Shown here piece by piece: positions 3,583 through 37,183 of a stretch of 63,916 nt of DNA. Each line of letters starts with the position of its first letter. Position 1 is the stretch's first letter. A model generated the notes under the pieces. The model had not been told where the DNA came from, searched no databases, and saw only the letters and a program-made list of their open reading frames with translations. Source of the DNA: a virus (taxonomy: Duplodnaviria > Caudoviricetes); IMG/VR virus record IMGVR_UViG_3300044491_001200, positions 1-63,916 of that record, one strand, 5' to 3'. The position numbers were made by a program, and so were the translations under genes.

Positions 3583-4114
3583 TAACTACGAAGATATTTT
3601 ACTTGATCTAATAACCAATAACAAAGACGCAAAAATTGGTCTAGCAGAGTTTGGTAGAGGTGATGGTTCACTATATAACTACTTGAAAGATAAAGTAGCA
3701 GAAGTACATGTTATCGAAGATTGGAATCAAACTATATTCCAGGCAGATAGAAACAATTATAATGATTGTGAAAACTTAATAGAATACAATGTTTTAAGTA
3801 CATATAATTTAGAAGAACAATTTGATGTGCTGTATTGCAGTTTGCCTAACTTTGTTCCTAATATGCCTGTTGAGGTATACCAAACAAGATTAAATAAAGG
3901 TTTTGCTAATTTATATAATGCATTATATGATAAAGGTAAACTAATTACAGTTGATTATAATGTTAAAAGTATTAAAGATGCAATAATAAATTTAAGTTGC
4001 CCGGTTGCAAAATATATACAAACTAATGAAGGCATAGACCCACACTTTGCATTTGAAGATTATGATGACTTGTTACCAGAGTATTATATTTGTGTAGCAA
4101 CTAAACATGATTGA
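3563..4114 (+). CDS. putative SAM-dependent methyltransferase
   Basis: LAEFGRGDG motif I-like, FDVLY, LYDKGKLI. Confidence 0.55.
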   Translation: MSNNILDNYEDILLDLITNNKDAKIGLAEFGRGDGSLYNYLKDKVAEVHVIEDWNQTIFQADRNNYNDCENLIEYNVLSTYNLEEQFDVLYCSLPNFVPNMPVEVYQTRLNKGFANLYNALYDKGKLITVDYNVKSIKDAIINLSCPVAKYIQTNEGIDPHFAFEDYDDLLPEYYICVATKHD

Positions 4115-4325
4115 GCAACTAGCAGAAAACATTCTCAAGGAACCTGAGTTTAGAAAGAATGGGTTTGTGTGGAAACACATAGAGCAAGGTAGTGCTGATC
4201 CGTTAAGATCTGTTCAAAGTGCAGTAGACCGAATGAGGGAACTTCACGATATAGAAGATAATCAATTCGGTCCACTATGTAATTTAGTTTATGAAAAACT
4301 AATTAAGATTGTTTCCAAATCTTAA
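4107..4325 (+). CDS. hypothetical protein
   Basis: 72 aa ORF overlapping upstream gene. Confidence 0.55.
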   Translation: MIEQLAENILKEPEFRKNGFVWKHIEQGSADPLRSVQSAVDRMRELHDIEDNQFGPLCNLVYEKLIKIVSKS

Positions 4326-20418: not shown

Positions 20419-21468
20419 ATGGATTACTTACACATAAACGTTGACATGACATTTATCAATGCTCAACGTGTAAACGACATAATAATGTTTACAAAAACAA
20501 ATCAATATAAAGGCCAAACACTAGTATTTCAAAGTTGGCAAGAGCCTATTGATAGAAGTAAGATACCATTGTATAAAAAATTGTTTAAAGAAACAGAACA
20601 CATAAACAAAATTTGGTTTGTGCAATATGATTATGCACAAGAAGATTGGATACAAGACTATGACTTTGTAACCTATTTTGATTTCCTTGCATACCAAATG
20701 TACCGATACAACTCAGATCATAATACAAGTTGGAACTACAACGCAACAAAATTTTTATGTCACACAGGAGTACCGCATAAGTTTAATCGCACAGTTTTAA
20801 TTTATAATCTATACAAAGAAGGCTTACTAGATAAATGTGAATACAGTTACCCTGCTTTATCAAAAGAAGTGCAAGACTCGTGTAGACCACTACTACCTAA
20901 CCTAGAACACAATGAATTCTACACATGGGTAAATGAAGTCTGTAAAGAGGCTACAGTTGATAACTACTCTAACGGTAATCCTCATGATGATTGGTTATGG
21001 GGTATATCTCTAGAAAAAGAACTTGCTGAAAATATGCTGTTTAATGTCACAGTAGAGACTTGGTTTTGTGAAATACAAAACACAATGCCTTTCTTAACAG
21101 AAAAAACTTGGAAACCTGTGATGAATAATTTACCTTTTATTCATGTAGGAGAGCCAGGCTCATTACAAAAACTAAAAAACTTAGGCTATAAAACATTTGA
21201 CAATTACTTTGTAGAGCAGTATGATGATATCACCGATCCAATAATGAGAATGAATGCTATTGTAAATAACATAAAACATTGGCATACAAACATACTAGAT
21301 TACAAAGATAGCATCAAACAGGATGTTGAGCATAATTATAATCATTTTAATAACAACATACAGAACATGATTGAAAATGTAAATGCTATAGATGATATAG
21401 ATTTACTTGTAGACTATACTTTAGAAACTCTTCTAAAAAATAAACCGGATTTAAGGTTGACATCCTAG
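20419..21468 (+). CDS. hypothetical protein, glycosyltransferase-like C-terminal region
   Basis: FNVTVET...FLTEKTWKP...PFI..G...LKNLGYKTF...YD pattern. Confidence 0.5.
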   Translation: MDYLHINVDMTFINAQRVNDIIMFTKTNQYKGQTLVFQSWQEPIDRSKIPLYKKLFKETEHINKIWFVQYDYAQEDWIQDYDFVTYFDFLAYQMYRYNSDHNTSWNYNATKFLCHTGVPHKFNRTVLIYNLYKEGLLDKCEYSYPALSKEVQDSCRPLLPNLEHNEFYTWVNEVCKEATVDNYSNGNPHDDWLWGISLEKELAENMLFNVTVETWFCEIQNTMPFLTEKTWKPVMNNLPFIHVGEPGSLQKLKNLGYKTFDNYFVEQYDDITDPIMRMNAIVNNIKHWHTNILDYKDSIKQDVEHNYNHFNNNIQNMIENVNAIDDIDLLVDYTLETLLKNKPDLRLTS

Positions 21469-21491
21469 ATTAAATTTGCTATCATACTTGT

Positions 21492-21818
21492 ATGGTAGAT
21501 AAAAAGACCCCAAAAAATAATGTAGTTGATATATTTTCCGGAAGGCTAAAGTCACCTAAGCCTACAGATATGCAATGGCAATTATATGTACCGCCAGACT
21601 TTACTGAAGATGATATGAATCAAATAGATTTAGAGGATCTTGCTACCAAAGTATCATATTGTGATACACAATGGGAAAAAATATATGAGTACACTAAATT
21701 CATTGAAAAAGTGTCACATCACATGAATATGAGCATGGATATAGACAATCTTAAGTGGTTAGAGGCTGATTTATTGCAAATTTTTGTAAAATTAGTGGAT
21801 AAAAAGGTTGACCTTTGA
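21492..21818 (+). CDS. hypothetical protein
   Basis: TTGACA(21457)-17-TATCAT immediately upstream. Confidence 0.65.
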   Translation: MVDKKTPKNNVVDIFSGRLKSPKPTDMQWQLYVPPDFTEDDMNQIDLEDLATKVSYCDTQWEKIYEYTKFIEKVSHHMNMSMDIDNLKWLEADLLQIFVKLVDKKVDL

Positions 21819-21836
21819 CCCCAAATTTAGTATTAT
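21808..21836 (+). promoter_or_regulatory. early promoter (AAAAAGG-TTGACC class)
   Basis: TTGACC-17-TATTAT; GTAGGAG RBS downstream. Confidence 0.8.
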
Positions 21837-21879
21837 ATATGCATAGTTTGAGAATAACACATTACGTAGGAGTAATTAT

Positions 21880-22974
21880 ATGGAAACTTTACAAGTAAGA
21901 CCGTCCGAGACAAAGCCAATTGTACTTCGTGCAATGAAGGCAAAACGTCCTATATTTTTATGGGGTTCACCGGGCATTGGTAAATCAGATCTTATTCAGC
22001 AGATTGTTGACTCAGGTGAGTTAGGTAACGCATACATGATTGATATGCGTCTTGCTCTTATGGAGCCAACTGATTTGCGAGGATATCCTTTTAGGAATCC
22101 AGAAACAAACACTATGGAGTGGGCACCAGCGGCAGACTTGCCAACTGAGCACCTTGCTTCACAATACGATACTATTGTATTGTTTATGGACGAACTTAAC
22201 TCAGCACCTCCTTCAGTACAGGCGGCGGCTTATCAGTTAGTTCTCAACAACAAAATTGGTCAGTATTCATTGCCTAGCAATGTAGTAATTGTTGCCGCAG
22301 GTAACAAAGAAACTGACAGAGGTGTTACATTCCGTATGCCTTCCCCCCTTGCAAACAGGTTCCGTCATATCAATATGGATGTGAACTTTGAAGATTGGAG
22401 CATTTGGGCAACGGATCACAAAGTACACCATGATGTAATTGGTTACTTGACTTATGCAAAGGCAGATTTGTTTGACTTTGATCCTAAGACAAGTTCACAG
22501 GCATTTGCTACTCCTCGTTCTTGGAGTTTTGTAAGTGAAATCCTTAACACTGAAGGCTTTGATACTGCTTCAGACTATGAGCAGAAGGCAGAGATTGCCG
22601 GTGCTATTGGTGAGGGTATGGCTATTAAGTTTTGTGAGCATAGGAAGTATGCTTCTAAACTACCAAACCCAGAAGATGTACTCAATGGTCAAGTAAAGAA
22701 ACTTGATATCAAAGAGAAGTCTGCTCAGTATTCATTTGCTATTGGACTATGCTATGAACTAGCAGAGTTGTATAACAAAGGTGATGAGAAACTTTTTGAT
22801 AAAGGTGTTGATATGTTCTTCGACTTTATCATGGCAAACTTTGAGCCTGAGTTAGTAATCTTTAGTGCTAAAACAGTACTAAGCGATCATGACATTGACA
22901 TCAAGCCTCGTAAACTACAAGGTAAGAAAGAGTTTAAAGATCGTTACTGGAAGTACTTATTCCCAGGGAAATAA
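21880..22974 (+). CDS. MoxR-like AAA+ ATPase
   Basis: WGSPGIGKS, DMRL, DLRG, LFMDELN, AAGN, PLANRF, TPRSW. Confidence 0.9.
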   Translation: METLQVRPSETKPIVLRAMKAKRPIFLWGSPGIGKSDLIQQIVDSGELGNAYMIDMRLALMEPTDLRGYPFRNPETNTMEWAPAADLPTEHLASQYDTIVLFMDELNSAPPSVQAAAYQLVLNNKIGQYSLPSNVVIVAAGNKETDRGVTFRMPSPLANRFRHINMDVNFEDWSIWATDHKVHHDVIGYLTYAKADLFDFDPKTSSQAFATPRSWSFVSEILNTEGFDTASDYEQKAEIAGAIGEGMAIKFCEHRKYASKLPNPEDVLNGQVKKLDIKEKSAQYSFAIGLCYELAELYNKGDEKLFDKGVDMFFDFIMANFEPELVIFSAKTVLSDHDIDIKPRKLQGKKEFKDRYWKYLFPGK

Positions 22975-22984
22975 TTATAAGTTT

Positions 22985-23037
22985 AAATCTGTTACTGTCC
23001 TACATCGTTACTCCTACAACCTATCAGTAACAGGTTT
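22985..23037 (+). ncRNA. candidate structured 3'-UTR RNA with anti-SD loop
   Basis: 13-bp stem AAATCTGTTACTG/CAGTAACAGGTTT around a 27-nt loop with TCCTAC and CTCCTAC. Confidence 0.5.
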
Positions 23038-23038
23038 C

Positions 23039-23066
23039 CCCCTCTCTTCGGAGAGGGGTTTTTTTT
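23039..23066 (+). terminator. intrinsic terminator
   Basis: CCCCTCTC-ttcg-GAGAGGGG followed by T run. Confidence 0.92.
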
Positions 23067-23071
23067 GGATT

Positions 23072-23758
23072 TTATTTGTATAGGTTGGCTAGGTATTCAC
23101 CTAGAGGACGATGACACCTTAGGTCAATATGGTTAGGACTATGGTCTTTACATTCACCAAGATCTACATCTATTGAGTATAACGGTTGAACATATTCATT
23201 TGATATTTCTAACCAATCAGTAGATTGCCAATGATCAAAATTTGATAGATTTATTAAAGTTTTTACTTTATGGTAGTCACACATTCTTGCTATGTCACCT
23301 ATTATTATTTCACTGCGGTTTAAATCTAATTGCTCGTCTGTTAGATATAATAAAAAATTGTTGTATGCATTTTCATGGCGTTCTGATCTCATGCTTATGT
23401 GATGGCCTTCTGCATGATGACTGAGATATCTTGGATGGTAAGGCTCATACACATAGTTTGATTCATCTGGGTTGAAGTGAGATTCAATAGTGTTTGCCGC
23501 AAAGTCTGTTTCTTCTACTGTGGTATCTGGAAACATGTATCTATTAGGACTAGTAGGCCAAACCATGATGTGTGTAGCATGTAACACCTCTATAGCATAC
23601 TTTACTTGGGCATGAATGTACATGTTGCACCCAGCACCTCTGCCTAATGTTATAGCCTCACAACCTAATACTTCACCCATTATCAAAGGCCATTGAGATT
23701 CTGCAGGCCAATGTGCATTTATACTAGCAAAACTATCCCCACAAACCACTAATTTCAT
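23072..23758 (-). CDS. SGNH/GDSL-like hypothetical protein
   Basis: VCGDSF start, LGRGAGCN, C-terminal NH. Confidence 0.6.
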   Translation of the reverse strand: MKLVVCGDSFASINAHWPAESQWPLIMGEVLGCEAITLGRGAGCNMYIHAQVKYAIEVLHATHIMVWPTSPNRYMFPDTTVEETDFAANTIESHFNPDESNYVYEPYHPRYLSHHAEGHHISMRSERHENAYNNFLLYLTDEQLDLNRSEIIIGDIARMCDYHKVKTLINLSNFDHWQSTDWLEISNEYVQPLYSIDVDLGECKDHSPNHIDLRCHRPLGEYLANLYK

Positions 23759-23809
23759 GCAAATATTTATAAAAATACCAACTTTTTGCCAGAAAAAGTG
23801 GAAAAAAGG

Positions 23810-23838
23810 TTGACCTAACCCACCAAATTTAGTATACT
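23810..23838 (+). promoter_or_regulatory. early promoter
   Basis: TTGACC-17-TATACT. Confidence 0.8.
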
Positions 23839-23872
23839 ATGTACATAGTTTAATAAAAAGGTAGGAGATTTT

Positions 23873-24400
23873 ATGCAAACATTAGTAATACACACCCAAT
23901 ACAGAGAGAACTATGCCGCTCACAATGATGATTATGAGCATGGTGTAAGTGAGGCTCACTGGAAGTTCAAGGGTGGTAGCACTTATTTTGTAACGGACTT
24001 AACTCCCGGGCAAATCAACAAGATTGCTCAAGACGGTATCCCTACCTTAACCAAATTGATTGAATACTCAAATGAGGCTTCAGAAGAATATATCCTGGAT
24101 TGGGAGATACGTGACCTTGGTAAAAATGGCGACGGCAAAGGTCCTATTTGCGAACCATGGGAAACTCCAATAGAGTTTTATTGGAAGATGGACCGTTGGT
24201 TATGTCGTACCCATCACACTCCCAATCCTGAATATAGCCATTGGAACCGTGCCATTATTGGCAAGGCAGAGCAATGGATTCCTTTAGAGGAGCAAGGTAG
24301 GTCAGACTACAAATGTCAGTACAAGACTGCCAATGGTTGGTTTGATATGCACTCTACTCAACTTAAAGCAGAAGTTGAAGAAGCCAATCAAGCCGCTTAA
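23873..24400 (+). CDS. hypothetical early protein
   Basis: Strong promoter and RBS; TQYRENY...WKFKGG pattern. Confidence 0.75.
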   Translation: MQTLVIHTQYRENYAAHNDDYEHGVSEAHWKFKGGSTYFVTDLTPGQINKIAQDGIPTLTKLIEYSNEASEEYILDWEIRDLGKNGDGKGPICEPWETPIEFYWKMDRWLCRTHHTPNPEYSHWNRAIIGKAEQWIPLEEQGRSDYKCQYKTANGWFDMHSTQLKAEVEEANQAA

Positions 24401-24459
24401 CTTTTGGTTGACATTATCATTATAATAAGTATAATATATACATTAGGTAGGAGAAGTTT

Positions 24460-25785
24460 ATGGACACATTAGAAGTAAAACAACCAAAGATTAGTAGCGA
24501 TCCTAAAGCCACATCTCATAAGGCGTTGGAAAGTATTCCACCTACAACTCTTAGCAAGAAAGAAATTGAAGATCGTTTAATTTCTGCTAGGATTTCCATG
24601 CTACTTAATTGTCCGTTCTATGGTAACTTGGCTTGTCGTCTTGAGATGAAAGACGCAACTGATTGGTGTCCAACTGCCGCAACTGATGGCAAATACTTTT
24701 ATTACAATAGAGACTTTGTGTCTGCATTGTCAATGGGTAACCTTGTATTCCTTTGGGGTCATGAGGTAGAGCATTGTGTATATGATCACTTTGGTAGACG
24801 AGGTGAGCGTGATCCTATGCTTTGGAACATTGCAAACGACTACATTGTAAACGGAGACCTTATTGAAGGTAACGTTGGTGAGAAAATTACACTTGTTGAA
24901 ATATGTCATGATTACAAGTATCGTGGTTATACTTCTGAGGAAGTATATGCAGAGTTATTCCAACAGGCTGAAGAAGAAGGCCGTGTAATAAATGTATCTA
25001 CACTTGATGTACACTTGGATATGGAAGACGGTGATGACGAGGGTGCTGGTACTAATGCTAATGCACAAGAAGGCAATGCAGAAAGTAAAGGCAAAGGTCC
25101 TGCAAAATATACTGCTGATGAAAAACGTGCTATCAAAGAACAATTTAAGAACGCAACTATCCAAGCGGCAAAGAGTGCCGGTGCTGGTAACTTGCCAAGT
25201 GGTGTTAAACGACTTGTAAGTGATCTAGTAAATCCTCAACTTAGTTGGAGAGAACTATTACCACAACAAATTCAAAGTGTAATTAGAAGTGATTACAACT
25301 TTAATACTCCTTCACGTAAAGGTATTGGTGAGGGTATTTGGATGCCAGGCTTAGACCGTGAGCAAACAATTGATGTTGCTATTGGTATGGACACATCGGG
25401 TTCTATGACAGATGATATGAGCCGTGATATCCTTAGTGAAGTAAAAGGTGTTATGGATCAGTACACAGATTTTAAAATACACTTGTTCTGCTTTGACACT
25501 GAAGTACACAATCCACAAGAGTTTACTGCTAATAACATGGACGAGTTTATGGACTACGAAGTTATGGGCGGTGGTGGAACCGAGTTTGATGTATGTTGGG
25601 AATACATGAAAGAAAATGGTATCCAACCTAAAAAGTTTATTATGTTTACAGATGGTTATCCTTGGTCCAGTTGGGGCGACGAGTCATACTGTGACACATT
25701 GTTTATTGTACACGGCGGAGGGTATGGTGGTGAGAAACCAGTAGCACCTTTCGGCATAACCGTACCATATGAAAGAGAGAAGTAA
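24460..25785 (+). CDS. metallopeptidase-like/VWA domain protein (DUF2201-type), MoxR partner
   Basis: TAATDG, HEVEH, WNIAND, MIDAS DTSGSM, GGGGTEF, FTDGY. Confidence 0.88.
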   Translation: MDTLEVKQPKISSDPKATSHKALESIPPTTLSKKEIEDRLISARISMLLNCPFYGNLACRLEMKDATDWCPTAATDGKYFYYNRDFVSALSMGNLVFLWGHEVEHCVYDHFGRRGERDPMLWNIANDYIVNGDLIEGNVGEKITLVEICHDYKYRGYTSEEVYAELFQQAEEEGRVINVSTLDVHLDMEDGDDEGAGTNANAQEGNAESKGKGPAKYTADEKRAIKEQFKNATIQAAKSAGAGNLPSGVKRLVSDLVNPQLSWRELLPQQIQSVIRSDYNFNTPSRKGIGEGIWMPGLDREQTIDVAIGMDTSGSMTDDMSRDILSEVKGVMDQYTDFKIHLFCFDTEVHNPQEFTANNMDEFMDYEVMGGGGTEFDVCWEYMKENGIQPKKFIMFTDGYPWSSWGDESYCDTLFIVHGGGYGGEKPVAPFGITVPYEREK

Positions 25786-36603: not shown

Positions 36604-36996
36604 TTACTGTTTGCCGAATGCTTTTCCGGCTTCTGCAATACCGAAACTACCTAAACAAACTACAACAAATGATGTGTAAATGGTATCGGAAATCTTTAAA
36701 TCCATTCCCCAAAAACCTGTTACCAAGTCTACTGTACCAAATGCTAACATCATTATAAAAGATGCAAAACCAATGATACTTTTCTCATTGATATCGTTCT
36801 CATCTCTAAACAATGCACCAAAAGAAAACTTCTCTTTGGGCTTTGCGGCCGCTGTAGCAATCTGTAATTCTTTAGAAAGTTTTTCCATCTCTCTAATTTT
36901 GTCTTGAGCCTCATCTAGTTTCAAGACCATTTCCGTGTACTTTGCGACGTCAATTTCAACGTTACCTTGACTAATTTTTTTACCTTCTTCGCTCAT
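36604..36996 (-). CDS. membrane protein (coiled coil plus two TM segments; holin candidate)
   Basis: GTAGGAG RBS, upstream GATAAATA on minus strand, two hydrophobic helices. Confidence 0.6.
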   Translation of the reverse strand: MSEEGKKISQGNVEIDVAKYTEMVLKLDEAQDKIREMEKLSKELQIATAAAKPKEKFSFGALFRDENDINEKSIIGFASFIMMLAFGTVDLVTGFWGMDLKISDTIYTSFVVVCLGSFGIAEAGKAFGKQ

Positions 36997-37183
36997 CGTT
37001 TCTCCTACAAAACTCTGTTACTGTGTATATGTATTTATCATTATCTTTGCCTAAAAACTTGACATTACAATCTGTTTGTGTATAAGTAGTTACTGTAGAC
37101 AAAAATATATTACTCAATGGGTAATGTAGGTTTGGGACTACAAAACTATTAAAAATTATAATCTATAAGGTTATAAGTGTTAT

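What the first reader, a model, noticed from the sequence alone, without database searches (positions are those of the whole stretch)
22985..23066. 3'-UTR hairpin displaying anti-Shine-Dalgarno seeds complementary to the phage's own early RBS
Seen: after the MoxR stop there is a 13-bp stem (22985-22997/23025-23037) with a 27-nt loop TCCTACATCGTTACTCCTACAACCTAT, followed by a strong terminator. TTACTCCTAC (23008-23017) is the exact complement of GTAGGAGTAA, the RBS of the same MoxR gene (21866-21875). The seeds also match GTAGGA(G) at the early-promoter genes 23873, 24460, 31147, 60954, 61577 and TAGGAGTAAC before the 17303 fibre gene. Established: C-rich loops that pair with SD sequences are a known sRNA repression mechanism. 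Inference: a phage 3'-UTR sRNA or long-range cis element that shuts off early-gene translation.
Basis: partly seen in the sequence, partly recalled or inferred. Interest (0 to 1): 0.8.

Follow-up and report, generated by a model that had tools for sequence, protein, structure and literature searches.

The report
Phage mRNA tail masks its start
A hairpin kept behind one ATPase gene in a group of uncultured giant phages shows a loop that matches, and has changed in step with, the ribosome landing site at the front of the same message, so it most likely pairs with that site to switch translation off.

Summary
The 13-bp stem, 27-nt loop, terminator and exact decamer complementarity to the ATPase gene's ribosome-binding site are all at the stated coordinates.

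The element is a conserved RNA motif. It follows the stop codon of the MoxR-like ATPase gene in 38 of 38 related viral contigs that carry sequence there. A pattern scan found it in 13 further contigs, and never elsewhere. The stems covary and the loop is almost invariant. No Rfam family matches.

The loop usually pairs on paper with two places in the gene's own 5' leader: its first bases and the Shine-Dalgarno site. Across eight loop classes, the natural loop/leader assignment is the best of 40,320 permutations.

My best reading (0.55) is an icaR-like 5'UTR-3'UTR anti-Shine-Dalgarno clamp on the ATPase mRNA. A trans-acting 3'UTR small RNA on sibling leaders remains possible (0.22). General early-gene shut-off is not shown, because other leaders do not track the loop. 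I rate it a new variant of a known kind, interest about 0.6.

The parts
21808..21836 (+). Sigma-70-type promoter of the ATPase gene (10 of 12 consensus positions, 17-nt spacer, two G before the -35 hexamer)
   Evidence: The same promoter type precedes the gene in relatives, and it was found by pattern in 32 of 40 distinct leaders.
21843..21850 (+). Leader site 1: the first bases of the predicted mRNA (about 7 nt after the -10 box), complementary to loop 23017-23024 with one mismatch in this window and perfectly in L003 and L006-L009
   Evidence: The transcription start is inferred from promoter geometry, not mapped.
21866..21875 (+). Leader site 2: the Shine-Dalgarno decamer of the ATPase gene, exact complement of 23008-23017
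   Evidence: The best duplex is 11 bp at -16.7 kcal/mol, covering -15 to -3 relative to the start codon.
21880..22974 (+). MoxR-like AAA+ ATPase gene (364 aa)
   Evidence: The closest cultured relatives are PA5oct-like Pseudomonas jumbo phages at 48.9% identity.
22985..22997 (+). 5' arm of the conserved hairpin
   Evidence: Covariation is shown.
22998..23024 (+). 27-nt loop with a single G. It carries two copies of a pyrimidine-rich hexamer (22998-23003 and 23012-23017), the anti-Shine-Dalgarno decamer (23008-23017) and the anti-site-1 octamer (23017-23024).
   Evidence: The cost of keeping 23007-23018 unpaired is 0.38 kcal/mol.
23025..23037 (+). 3' arm of the conserved hairpin
23039..23066 (+). 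Intrinsic terminator: an 8-bp stem (6 GC pairs), a 4-nt loop and a run of eight T
36994..37010 (-). Candidate trans target (a lead only): the ribosome-binding site and start codon of the minus-strand gene 36604-36996, complementary to the loop over 17 nt with one mismatch
   Evidence: -25.3 kcal/mol, the best non-self site among 12,776 sliding windows. No ortholog was found in five relatives' contigs.

Best explanation
The element is a structured RNA in the 3' untranslated region of the ATPase mRNA. A covarying stem holds open a G-poor loop, and an intrinsic terminator follows directly.

The loop base-pairs with the 5' leader of the same mRNA species. It always pairs at or next to the Shine-Dalgarno site, and in most classes also with the first bases of the transcript, looping out the leader between the two sites. 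Pairing would hide the ribosome-binding site and the 5' end. Once the 3' end has been transcribed, further initiation is repressed, and decay may be altered as well.

Whether the pairing happens within one molecule or between two copies of the mRNA (or a 3' fragment of it) is open. Leaders of a few sibling genes with the same leader type may be secondary targets.

- Shown: structure, conservation, strand, complementarity, and co-variation of loop and leader.
- Inferred: pairing in the cell, repression, and timing.
For: 1. Strict linkage. The element follows the ATPase stop in 38 of 38 relatives that carry downstream sequence. In an independent pattern scan, all 24 hits with hairpin and terminator had the ATPase gene upstream, and the other 56 of 80 listed hits had neither.
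2. A real RNA structure.
   - In class B, 19 distinct sequences give 96.6% standard pairs, 7 of 8 pairs show changes on both sides, 0 of 500 shuffles reach this, and slid registers give 26-50%.
   - Across all classes there are 24 distinct 7-bp helices, 98.2% paired against 48.6% when the arms are shuffled, with 0 of 1000 shuffles as high.
3. Loop sequence under selection. A 17-nt block is invariant in 19 of 19 distinct class-B rows, while nine of their ATPase proteins fall to 69% identity.
4. Complementarity to the gene's own leader. The best duplex overlaps the Shine-Dalgarno core in 38 of 40 distinct loop/leader pairs, at -14.5 to -24.6 kcal/mol, and most are two-part.
5. Co-variation. The own loop has mean rank 5.5 of 24 loop types (12.5 expected) and ranks first in 13 of 40. 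Over eight classes the natural assignment is the single best of 40,320 permutations. It stays the best with leaders cut to the predicted transcript and unedited loop stretches.
6. Window energetics. The duplex is -16.7 kcal/mol, against -8.3 +/- 2.4 for shuffled loops, with 1 of 500 as low. Opening costs are 0.38 kcal/mol for the loop and 2.89 for the leader.
7. Among leaders behind the same promoter type, the ATPase leader is the best partner of its own loop in 5 of 7 genomes.
8. Precedent. icaR 5'-3' UTR pairing (PMC3868564, abstract read). In B. subtilis, anti-Shine-Dalgarno-like 8-mers placed hundreds of nt downstream pair with the ribosome-binding site and repress it (PMC12697547, abstract read).
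Against: - No RNA evidence of any kind. The transcription start is inferred from promoter geometry.
- The loop is far more conserved than the leaders it is proposed to pair with. It is invariant in class B while the leaders differ widely. That pattern is more typical of a seed with several partners, or of an additional protein partner, than of a simple two-party cis pairing.
- Site 1 is imperfect in the window (one mismatch), and the best duplex in L034 and L145 uses the Shine-Dalgarno site alone.
- Some own-loop ranks are poor: L004 14, L005 16 and L022 14, each of 24.
- Predicted energy alone is not specific. In the window the ATPase leader is only about the tenth-best non-self site, and several coding windows score -19 to -22 kcal/mol.
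- In class C two other leaders pair better (-23.4, -20.2) than the ATPase leader (-17.4).
- Loop pairing with a distant strand is a pseudoknot-type contact that the folding tools used cannot evaluate as a whole.
- Only eight independent classes underlie the permutation result.
Confidence: 0.55

Rival explanations
1. The hairpin plus terminator (about 80 nt) accumulates as a 3'UTR-derived small RNA. It acts in trans on a set of phage mRNAs that share the same leader type, with the ATPase gene serving mainly as its carrier. This would make it an RNA-based shut-off of one promoter class.
For: - The loop is invariant while individual leaders vary, as for a multi-target seed.
- Each phage has several genes behind the same promoter type whose leaders begin and end with motifs complementary to the loop.
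- Strong non-ATPase partners exist in class C (-23.4, -20.2), class D (-22.6, and -19.4 for the DUF2201 partner gene) and class G (-18.5).
- In the window, the best non-self site is the ribosome-binding site plus start codon of another gene (36994-37010, -25.3).
- The hairpin-plus-terminator layout with an A/U-rich stretch before it is what 3'UTR small RNAs look like (recalled).
Against: - Across seven genomes the non-ATPase leaders show no clear preference for their own phage's loop. In the window, for example, the class C loop fits them better (-16.1) than the window's own loop (-11.8).
- In the window the five other leaders of that promoter class pair at only -8.8 to -14.5 kcal/mol.
- The best trans candidate has no ortholog in five relatives' contigs.
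- No internal promoter or mapped processing site is known.
- Linkage to one gene is absolute in 52 contigs.
Confidence: 0.22
2. The loop is a binding site for a protein or for the ribosome, for example a pyrimidine-motif binder that recognises the pentamer repeated two or three times. On this view its complementarity to ribosome-binding sites is a by-product of being pyrimidine-rich.
For: - A short pyrimidine-rich pentamer is repeated 2-3 times in every loop class.
- Within a class the loop sequence is more conserved than pairing with a variable leader would require.
- An extra hairpin can be inserted between the two halves of the loop without loss of either half (L004-L009, L033).
Against: - A by-product does not explain why class-specific loop changes match class-specific changes in the leader outside the Shine-Dalgarno core (best of 40,320 permutations).
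- No candidate protein is known.
- The neighbouring proteins have no RNA-binding family hits.
Confidence: 0.1
3. The hairpin is only an accessory of the terminator or a 3' end stabiliser that blocks exonucleases or helps termination. On this view the loop sequence has no pairing role.
For: - It abuts the terminator, 0-5 nt away, in all relatives.
- In 10 of 38 relatives (classes C, E, F) the run of T is displaced from the GC hairpin, so a second hairpin might help there.
Against: - A stabiliser needs a stem, not an invariant 17-24 nt loop.
- It does not predict co-variation with the leader.
- Cultured relatives manage with a plain terminator.
Confidence: 0.05
4. A DNA-level or minus-strand reading. 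Either the inverted repeats flanking the gene are recombination or mobility sites, or the minus strand is transcribed and shows purine-rich motifs as a CsrA-type sponge.
For: - The loop and the leader are inverted repeats that flank a 1.2-kb gene.
- The minus strand folds as well as the plus strand (-32.2 kcal/mol, z -4.89).
- In the window a convergent ORF (23072-23758) could read into the element.
Against: - The two leader sites are contiguous in the loop but lie 0-25 nt apart in the leaders, with spacing that differs between classes. That suits RNA pairing, not a protein site on DNA.
- Gene order and orientation are constant.
- Where the accepted helix was recovered, isolated non-Watson-Crick stem positions are G-U on the + strand (18, against 0 A-C), which would be mismatches on the minus strand.
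- There is no terminator-like site on the minus strand.
- The convergent ORF exists only in the window and its 99% twin.
Confidence: 0.03

Closest known systems
icaR mRNA 5'UTR-3'UTR interaction of Staphylococcus aureus (PMC3868564; abstract and outline read)
   Same: An anti-Shine-Dalgarno pyrimidine motif in the 3'UTR of a monocistronic mRNA is complementary to the Shine-Dalgarno region of the same mRNA. In icaR this blocks the initiation complex and creates an RNase III substrate.
   Different: - There is no sequence relation.
- Here the motif sits in the large loop of a covarying hairpin directly before the terminator, in a 3'UTR of about 90 nt (icaR's is long).
- Pairing is usually two-part and includes the 5' end.
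- The carrier is a virulent-type jumbo phage.
- The support here is comparative (52 contigs, co-variation) and not experimental.
hbs mRNA 5'/3'-UTR interaction of Bacillus subtilis (PMC5737220; abstract read)
   Same: [quoted passage not shown]
   Different: In hbs the pairing overlaps an RNase Y site rather than the ribosome-binding site. No loop display and no family-wide conservation are reported in what I read.
Distal anti-Shine-Dalgarno-like sequences acting by long-range folding (PMC12697547, preprint; abstract read)
   Same: Pyrimidine-rich 8-mers hundreds of nt downstream pair with the ribosome-binding site, promote decay and inhibit initiation. This shows that the proposed cis mechanism works in bacteria.
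   Different: Those are synthetic substitutions, and such sequences are depleted from natural genes. Here one is conserved and displayed on purpose.
Small RNAs with C-rich loops that pair with Shine-Dalgarno sites (RNAIII, RsaE; recalled), and Rfam anti-hemB RF02837 and Betaproteobacteria toxic sRNA RF02278
   Same: A hairpin loop shows a pyrimidine seed against ribosome-binding sites, and a terminator lies at the 3' end.
   Different: - The Rfam scores are far below the gathering thresholds (25.8 against 49.5, and 15.4 against 50), so it is not a member.
- Those RNAs are independent genes, whereas this element is fixed in one gene's 3'UTR.
Long-distance RNA pairings that gate translation in RNA phages, and 3' translation elements of plant viruses that kiss the 5'UTR (both recalled)
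   Same: Viral messages use distant complementary segments, sometimes a 3' loop and a 5' leader, to control initiation.
   Different: - Those are RNA genomes, and in plant viruses the contact activates translation.
- The sub-threshold Rfam hit to a plant-virus element (21.8 against 41) is not evidence of relation.

Membership tests
icaR-type 5'UTR-3'UTR anti-Shine-Dalgarno pairing (a mechanism class, not a sequence family) | A 3'UTR motif complementary to the Shine-Dalgarno region of the same mRNA | tested here: met
   The exact decamer is in the window. The best duplex overlaps the Shine-Dalgarno core in 38 of 40 distinct loop/leader pairs.
icaR-type 5'UTR-3'UTR anti-Shine-Dalgarno pairing (a mechanism class, not a sequence family) | The pairing is maintained in evolution (co-variation of the two partners) | tested here: met
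   The natural class assignment is the best of 40,320 permutations in two versions of the test. The mean own-loop rank is 5.5 of 24. Only eight independent classes are available.
icaR-type 5'UTR-3'UTR anti-Shine-Dalgarno pairing (a mechanism class, not a sequence family) | The pairing blocks 30S binding and/or creates an RNase III substrate, and removing the motif raises protein output | not testable with these tools
   This needs toeprinting, RNase III assays and reporters.
3'UTR-derived trans-acting small RNA | A stable short RNA species made by processing or from an internal promoter | not testable with these tools
I saw no internal promoter shared by the relatives in the region before the hairpin, by eye; this was not formally tested.
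3'UTR-derived trans-acting small RNA | A conserved seed with complementarity to several targets that is kept in relatives | tested here: inconclusive
   The seed is conserved. Several strong non-ATPase leaders exist in classes C, D and G, but there is no overall own-phage preference among 31 non-ATPase leaders of seven genomes.
Any Rfam 15 family | A score at or above the family's gathering threshold | tested here: not met
   There are 0 matches in the whole window at gathering thresholds. In E-value mode the best hits at the element are RF02837 at 25.8 (threshold 49.5), RF02579 at 26.4 (141), RF02461 at 21.8 (41) and RF02278 at 15.4 (50).
Intrinsic (Rho-independent) terminator | A GC-rich hairpin directly followed by a run of T on the coding strand | tested here: met
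   The hairpin at 23039-23058 is followed by eight T. A GC hairpin follows the element in 38 of 38 relatives, with the T run directly adjacent in 28 and displaced in 10 (read).
   The gene, the terminator and the G-U pairs are on the + strand, and no minus-strand terminator-like site exists. The minus-strand reading is purine-rich, but transcription of that strand is supported only by a non-conserved convergent ORF.

The most novel reading that the evidence does not exclude
A family-wide, covariation-supported 'closed-loop' switch in a DNA phage. As soon as the polymerase finishes the gene, the 3'UTR loop clamps both the 5' end and the ribosome-binding site of the message. Each transcript would then be translated only during its own synthesis. 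The same loop, released as a fragment, would silence the sibling leaders of one promoter class. That would be an RNA-only counterpart of the protein-based early-message shut-off known from T4-type phages (recalled).
Probability: 0.2. Interest if true: 0.8.

Novelty: new variant of a known kind. Interest (0 to 1): 0.62.

Why it matters
Regulation by 3'UTRs that fold back on the 5'UTR is known in bacteria from only a few single-gene cases, and those rest on experiments in one species. Here comparative data alone (52 contigs, 24 different stems, eight loop classes) point to such a contact. It occurs in a clade of uncultured jumbo phages and in a motif that no RNA family library contains.

If confirmed, three things follow:
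- It would give the first phage example of this mechanism.
- It would provide a compact, portable module (about 80 nt plus a matching leader) for limiting translation per transcript.
- It would give a concrete handle on how large phages set the dose of a MoxR-type ATPase relative to its VWA-like partner, which in this clade is transcribed separately.

It also shows that the leaders of one promoter class in these phages share motifs beyond the Shine-Dalgarno core.

Tried and rejected
- **Cross-class MAFFT alignment.** It put the stems out of register and RNAalifold found 0 pairs. A local trial with trimmed hairpins failed in the same way. I therefore used a covariance-model alignment for class B only and my own count anchored at the loop-closing pair for all classes. 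In that count the stems were chosen by a pairing-maximising rule, so only the shuffled-arm control carries weight.
- **First collection pattern.** It was mis-specified and returned 23 unrelated hits, mostly reverse complements of ordinary ribosome-binding sites. The scan was wasted.
- **Local 'anti-anti' site.** The idea was that a purine-rich stretch just after the stop codon pairs with the loop, as in the minimum-energy fold of L010-L012 and L023. It is not general: 10 of 40 distinct sequences reach -10 kcal/mol, and only 1 of 40 beats all but 5 of 200 shuffles.
- **Element in cultured phages.** PA5oct, Phosso and Atu_ph07 have only a plain terminator hairpin after the gene. The single relative in 185,579 species genomes is a contig of a Nitratifractor MAG at 46% identity. 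There the gene abuts its partner and no element is present. No host clue was gained.
- **Further copies.** The class-B model finds one copy per locus and nothing else of note in the window. Hairpins with large G-poor loops are common by chance in this AT-rich DNA, but among those listed for the window only this one is followed by a terminator. The output for the other genomes was cut.
- **Ortholog of the best trans candidate (36604-36996).** None was found in five relatives' contigs, all of which are fragments.
- **Mimicry of a ribosomal RNA segment.** I considered this but did not test it, because the host is unknown.
- **Strand test.** My first version was circular. The neutral version recovered the accepted helix in most but not all of 34 hairpins. 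Its 8 A-C and 10 'other' positions come from L007 and L009 (a bulge), from one position where the L034 helix ran a step into the loop, and from cases where it ran into the loop or slipped register (L011, L013, L014, L018, L083, L138, L145).
- **Literature.** Four searches listed no description of this motif or of a phage 5'-3' UTR pairing.
Full report
**The observation.**
- One search shows a 13-pair stem (22985-22997 with 23025-23037, one G-U pair), a 27-nt loop with a single G, and, two bases later, a GC hairpin with a run of eight T. The scan tool lists that hairpin as the only terminator-like site in 21400-24500 on either strand.
- As RNA the stretch folds into just these two hairpins at -30.0 kcal/mol, z -3.99, with 0 of 200 shuffles as good. 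The minus strand folds equally well, so folding does not tell the strand.
- The decamer 23008-23017 is the exact reverse complement of the ribosome-binding site at 21866-21875, and these are the only two exact copies in the window.
- The hexamer that heads this site is not enriched overall (26 copies against 26.5 expected).

**Context.**
- The window is a viral contig estimated at 18% of a genome, so it is a fragment of a very large phage.
- It encodes a DNA polymerase and a Lon-like protease.
- The gene before the element is an AAA+ ATPase: PHROG 1297 at E 6.6e-95, with Pfam MoxR-type domains below threshold. A DUF2201 VWA-like partner gene lies at 24460-25785.
- The nearest cultured relatives are PA5oct-like Pseudomonas jumbo phages at 48.9% identity. 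All 847 matching phage records are below 60%.
- The gene has its own sigma-70-type promoter at 21808-21836, a predicted leader of about 37 nt, and its own terminator. It can therefore be made as a one-gene message. The upstream ORF ends inside the promoter, so read-through transcripts are not excluded.

**Conservation.**
- A protein-guided scan of viral contigs gave 40 loci at 54-99% identity. Two end before the stop codon. All other 38 carry, right after the stop, a hairpin with a large loop followed by a GC hairpin.
- A second scan that ignored the gene and searched for a loop pattern listed 80 of at least 117 hits. Of these, 24 had the hairpin and terminator, and all 24 had the ATPase gene upstream (one only in part, because the locus begins there). 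The other 56 lay in coding sequence and had neither.
- Eleven of the 24 were contigs already seen, so the element is now known from the window plus 51 contigs, always in the same place.
- PA5oct, Phosso, Atu_ph07 and a Nitratifractor MAG contig have the gene but no element.
- No Rfam family reaches its threshold.

**Structure and strand.**
- The stem sequences differ between lineages while pairing is kept.
- In a covariance-model alignment of class B (19 distinct sequences), 96.6% of cells are standard pairs and 7 of 8 pairs show changes on both sides. No shuffle of 500 reaches any of the five measures, and slid registers give 26-50% pairing. That alignment leans towards the model's structure.
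- Across all classes there are 24 distinct loop-proximal 7-bp helices, 98.2% paired against 48.6 +/- 5.1% when 3' arms are dealt to other sequences, with 0 of 1000 as high. Six entries whose ungapped stem arms were shorter than 7 bp were left out.
- Where a strand-neutral procedure recovered the accepted helix, isolated non-Watson-Crick positions are G-U on the + strand (18) and never A-C (with the caveats given under Tried and rejected).
- Taken with the gene and the terminator, this makes the + strand RNA the functional form.

**The loop.**
- Within class B a 17-nt block is identical in 19 of 19 distinct rows, while nine of the ATPase proteins are only 69-97% identical to one another (median 76%).
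- All classes are G-poor and repeat a pyrimidine-rich pentamer two or three times.
- In L004-L009 and L033 an extra small hairpin is inserted between the two halves of the loop, and both halves are kept.

**Loop and leader.**
- One search showed that the leader of the ATPase gene is also patterned: a motif in its first bases and an extended Shine-Dalgarno site.
- The 3' half of the loop is complementary to both motifs. They are contiguous in the loop and 0-25 nt apart in the leader.
- The best predicted duplex overlaps the Shine-Dalgarno core in 38 of 40 distinct loop/leader pairs (12-20 bp, -14.5 to -24.6 kcal/mol). The two exceptions, L004 and L005, used promoter sequence.
- Class-specific differences match on both sides.
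  - Against 24 loop types, the own loop has mean rank 5.5 (12.5 expected). It ranks first in 13 of 40, with ties among near-identical class-B loops.
  - With eight classes, the natural assignment gives -153.3 kcal/mol summed. The mean over all 40,320 permutations is -127.3 +/- 7.2, and no other permutation is as low.
  - Repeating the test with leaders cut to the predicted transcript, and with only unedited loop stretches, gives the same result: -150.3 against -123.0 +/- 7.1, 1 of 40,320.
- In the window the duplex is -16.7 kcal/mol, against -8.3 +/- 2.4 for 500 shuffled loops (1 as low), and 1.7% of random 53-mers score as low.
- The loop costs 0.38 kcal/mol to keep open and the leader site 2.89, leaving about -13.4 net.

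**Own message or many messages?**
- For the own message:
  - Linkage to the gene is absolute.
  - The co-variation test above holds.
  - The ATPase leader is the best partner of its own loop among leaders behind the same promoter type in 5 of 7 genomes (window, G004, G008, G009, G010). It is second in G006 and third in G007.
- For additional targets:
  - The loop is more conserved than any one leader.
  - Each phage has several leaders of the same type, and some pair strongly. In class D these include the leader of the DUF2201 partner gene.
  - In the window the best non-self site of 12,776 sliding windows is the ribosome-binding site and start codon of the minus-strand gene 36604-36996: 17 nt with one mismatch, -25.3 kcal/mol.
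- Against a general regulon:
  - The 31 non-ATPase leaders of seven genomes show no clear own-loop preference.
  - The window's five sibling leaders pair at only -8.8 to -14.5 kcal/mol.
  - The 36996 gene has no ortholog in five relatives' contigs.
- Energy alone is a weak guide. The ATPase leader is about the tenth-best non-self site in the window, and several coding windows score as well.

**Most likely mechanism.** After transcription of the 3'UTR, the open loop pairs with the leader of the ATPase message. This covers the Shine-Dalgarno site and, in most classes, the very 5' end. Initiation is blocked and access of 5'-end-dependent nucleases may change.
- Shown here: the motif, its strand, stem covariation, loop conservation, loop accessibility, and complementarity and co-variation with the leader.
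- Inferred: that the contact forms in cells, that it represses, and whether it is intramolecular.
- I put 0.55 on this reading and 0.22 on a mainly trans-acting small RNA. The rest goes to protein binding, a terminator accessory, or DNA-level and minus-strand readings.

**Comparison with what is known.**
- The closest case is icaR of S. aureus. There a 3'UTR pyrimidine motif pairs with the Shine-Dalgarno region of the same mRNA, blocks the initiation complex and creates an RNase III site (PMC3868564, abstract read).
- hbs of B. subtilis has a 14-bp 5'/3' UTR pairing that modulates RNase Y cleavage (PMC5737220, abstract read).
- A 2025 preprint shows that anti-Shine-Dalgarno-like 8-mers far downstream repress through long-range pairing, and that natural genes avoid them (PMC12697547, abstract read).
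- Phage transcriptome papers report many candidate UTR-derived RNAs but, in the passages I read, not this mechanism (PMC10914365).
- The present element shares the principle but not the sequence, the architecture (loop display next to the terminator, two-part contact) or the host. It matches no curated RNA family.
- Four literature searches listed nothing on it.

**Limits.**
- The host is unknown.
- All relatives are contig fragments.
- Only eight independent loop classes exist so far.

Noticed in passing
window 36994-37010 (- strand), gene 36604-36996: The ribosome-binding site and start codon of this 130-aa gene (no family hit) are complementary to the loop over 17 nt with one mismatch (-25.3 kcal/mol). 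That is better than any other non-self site in the window. It is the first gene of a four-gene leftward block.
   Followed up: partly
window 23072-23758 (- strand): A 228-aa ORF with no Pfam or PHROG hit lies between the terminator and the next promoter (23810). It is present only in the window and its 99% twin L002; in the other relatives the next promoter follows the terminator within a few tens of bases. It looks like an insertion.
   Followed up: partly
L004-L009 and L033, about 4125-4165: An extra small hairpin of variable sequence and length is inserted inside the loop, between its two conserved halves.
   Followed up: partly
L010-L012, L023, L024, bases 4105-4125: A purine-rich stretch that overlaps the stop codon can pair with the loop and wins the minimum-energy fold in these loci. 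It is not general: 1 of 40 is significant against shuffles.
   Followed up: yes
window promoters at 21457, 21808, 23810, 24408, 28242, 31087, 44940, 60893, 61515: A class of near-consensus sigma-70-type promoters has one or two G before the -35 hexamer. Several of their leaders share both a start motif and an extended Shine-Dalgarno site. Others (7952, 28242, 48456, 21457) have the start codon only 3-9 nt after the -10 box and look leaderless.
   Followed up: partly
window 22974-23001 (- strand) and the loop read on the - strand: On the minus strand the loop reads as a perfect ribosome-binding site, a start codon and an immediate stop, and the scan tool lists a promoter-like site (10 of 12) there. 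Neither feature is kept in class B relatives.
   Followed up: partly
L213 2490-2510; L042 2583-2653: In a Nitratifractor MAG contig the ATPase gene and its DUF2201 partner abut with no terminator. In PA5oct a plain terminator follows the ATPase gene, and the next annotated gene, 69 nt on, is a 151-aa hypothetical protein whose family I did not check. In the clade studied here the two genes are separate transcription units, each with its own promoter.
   Followed up: partly
G007 (contig of L028): IMG/VR classes this 97-kb relative as a provirus, while the other relatives whose end class was shown are classed as linear fragments.
   Followed up: no
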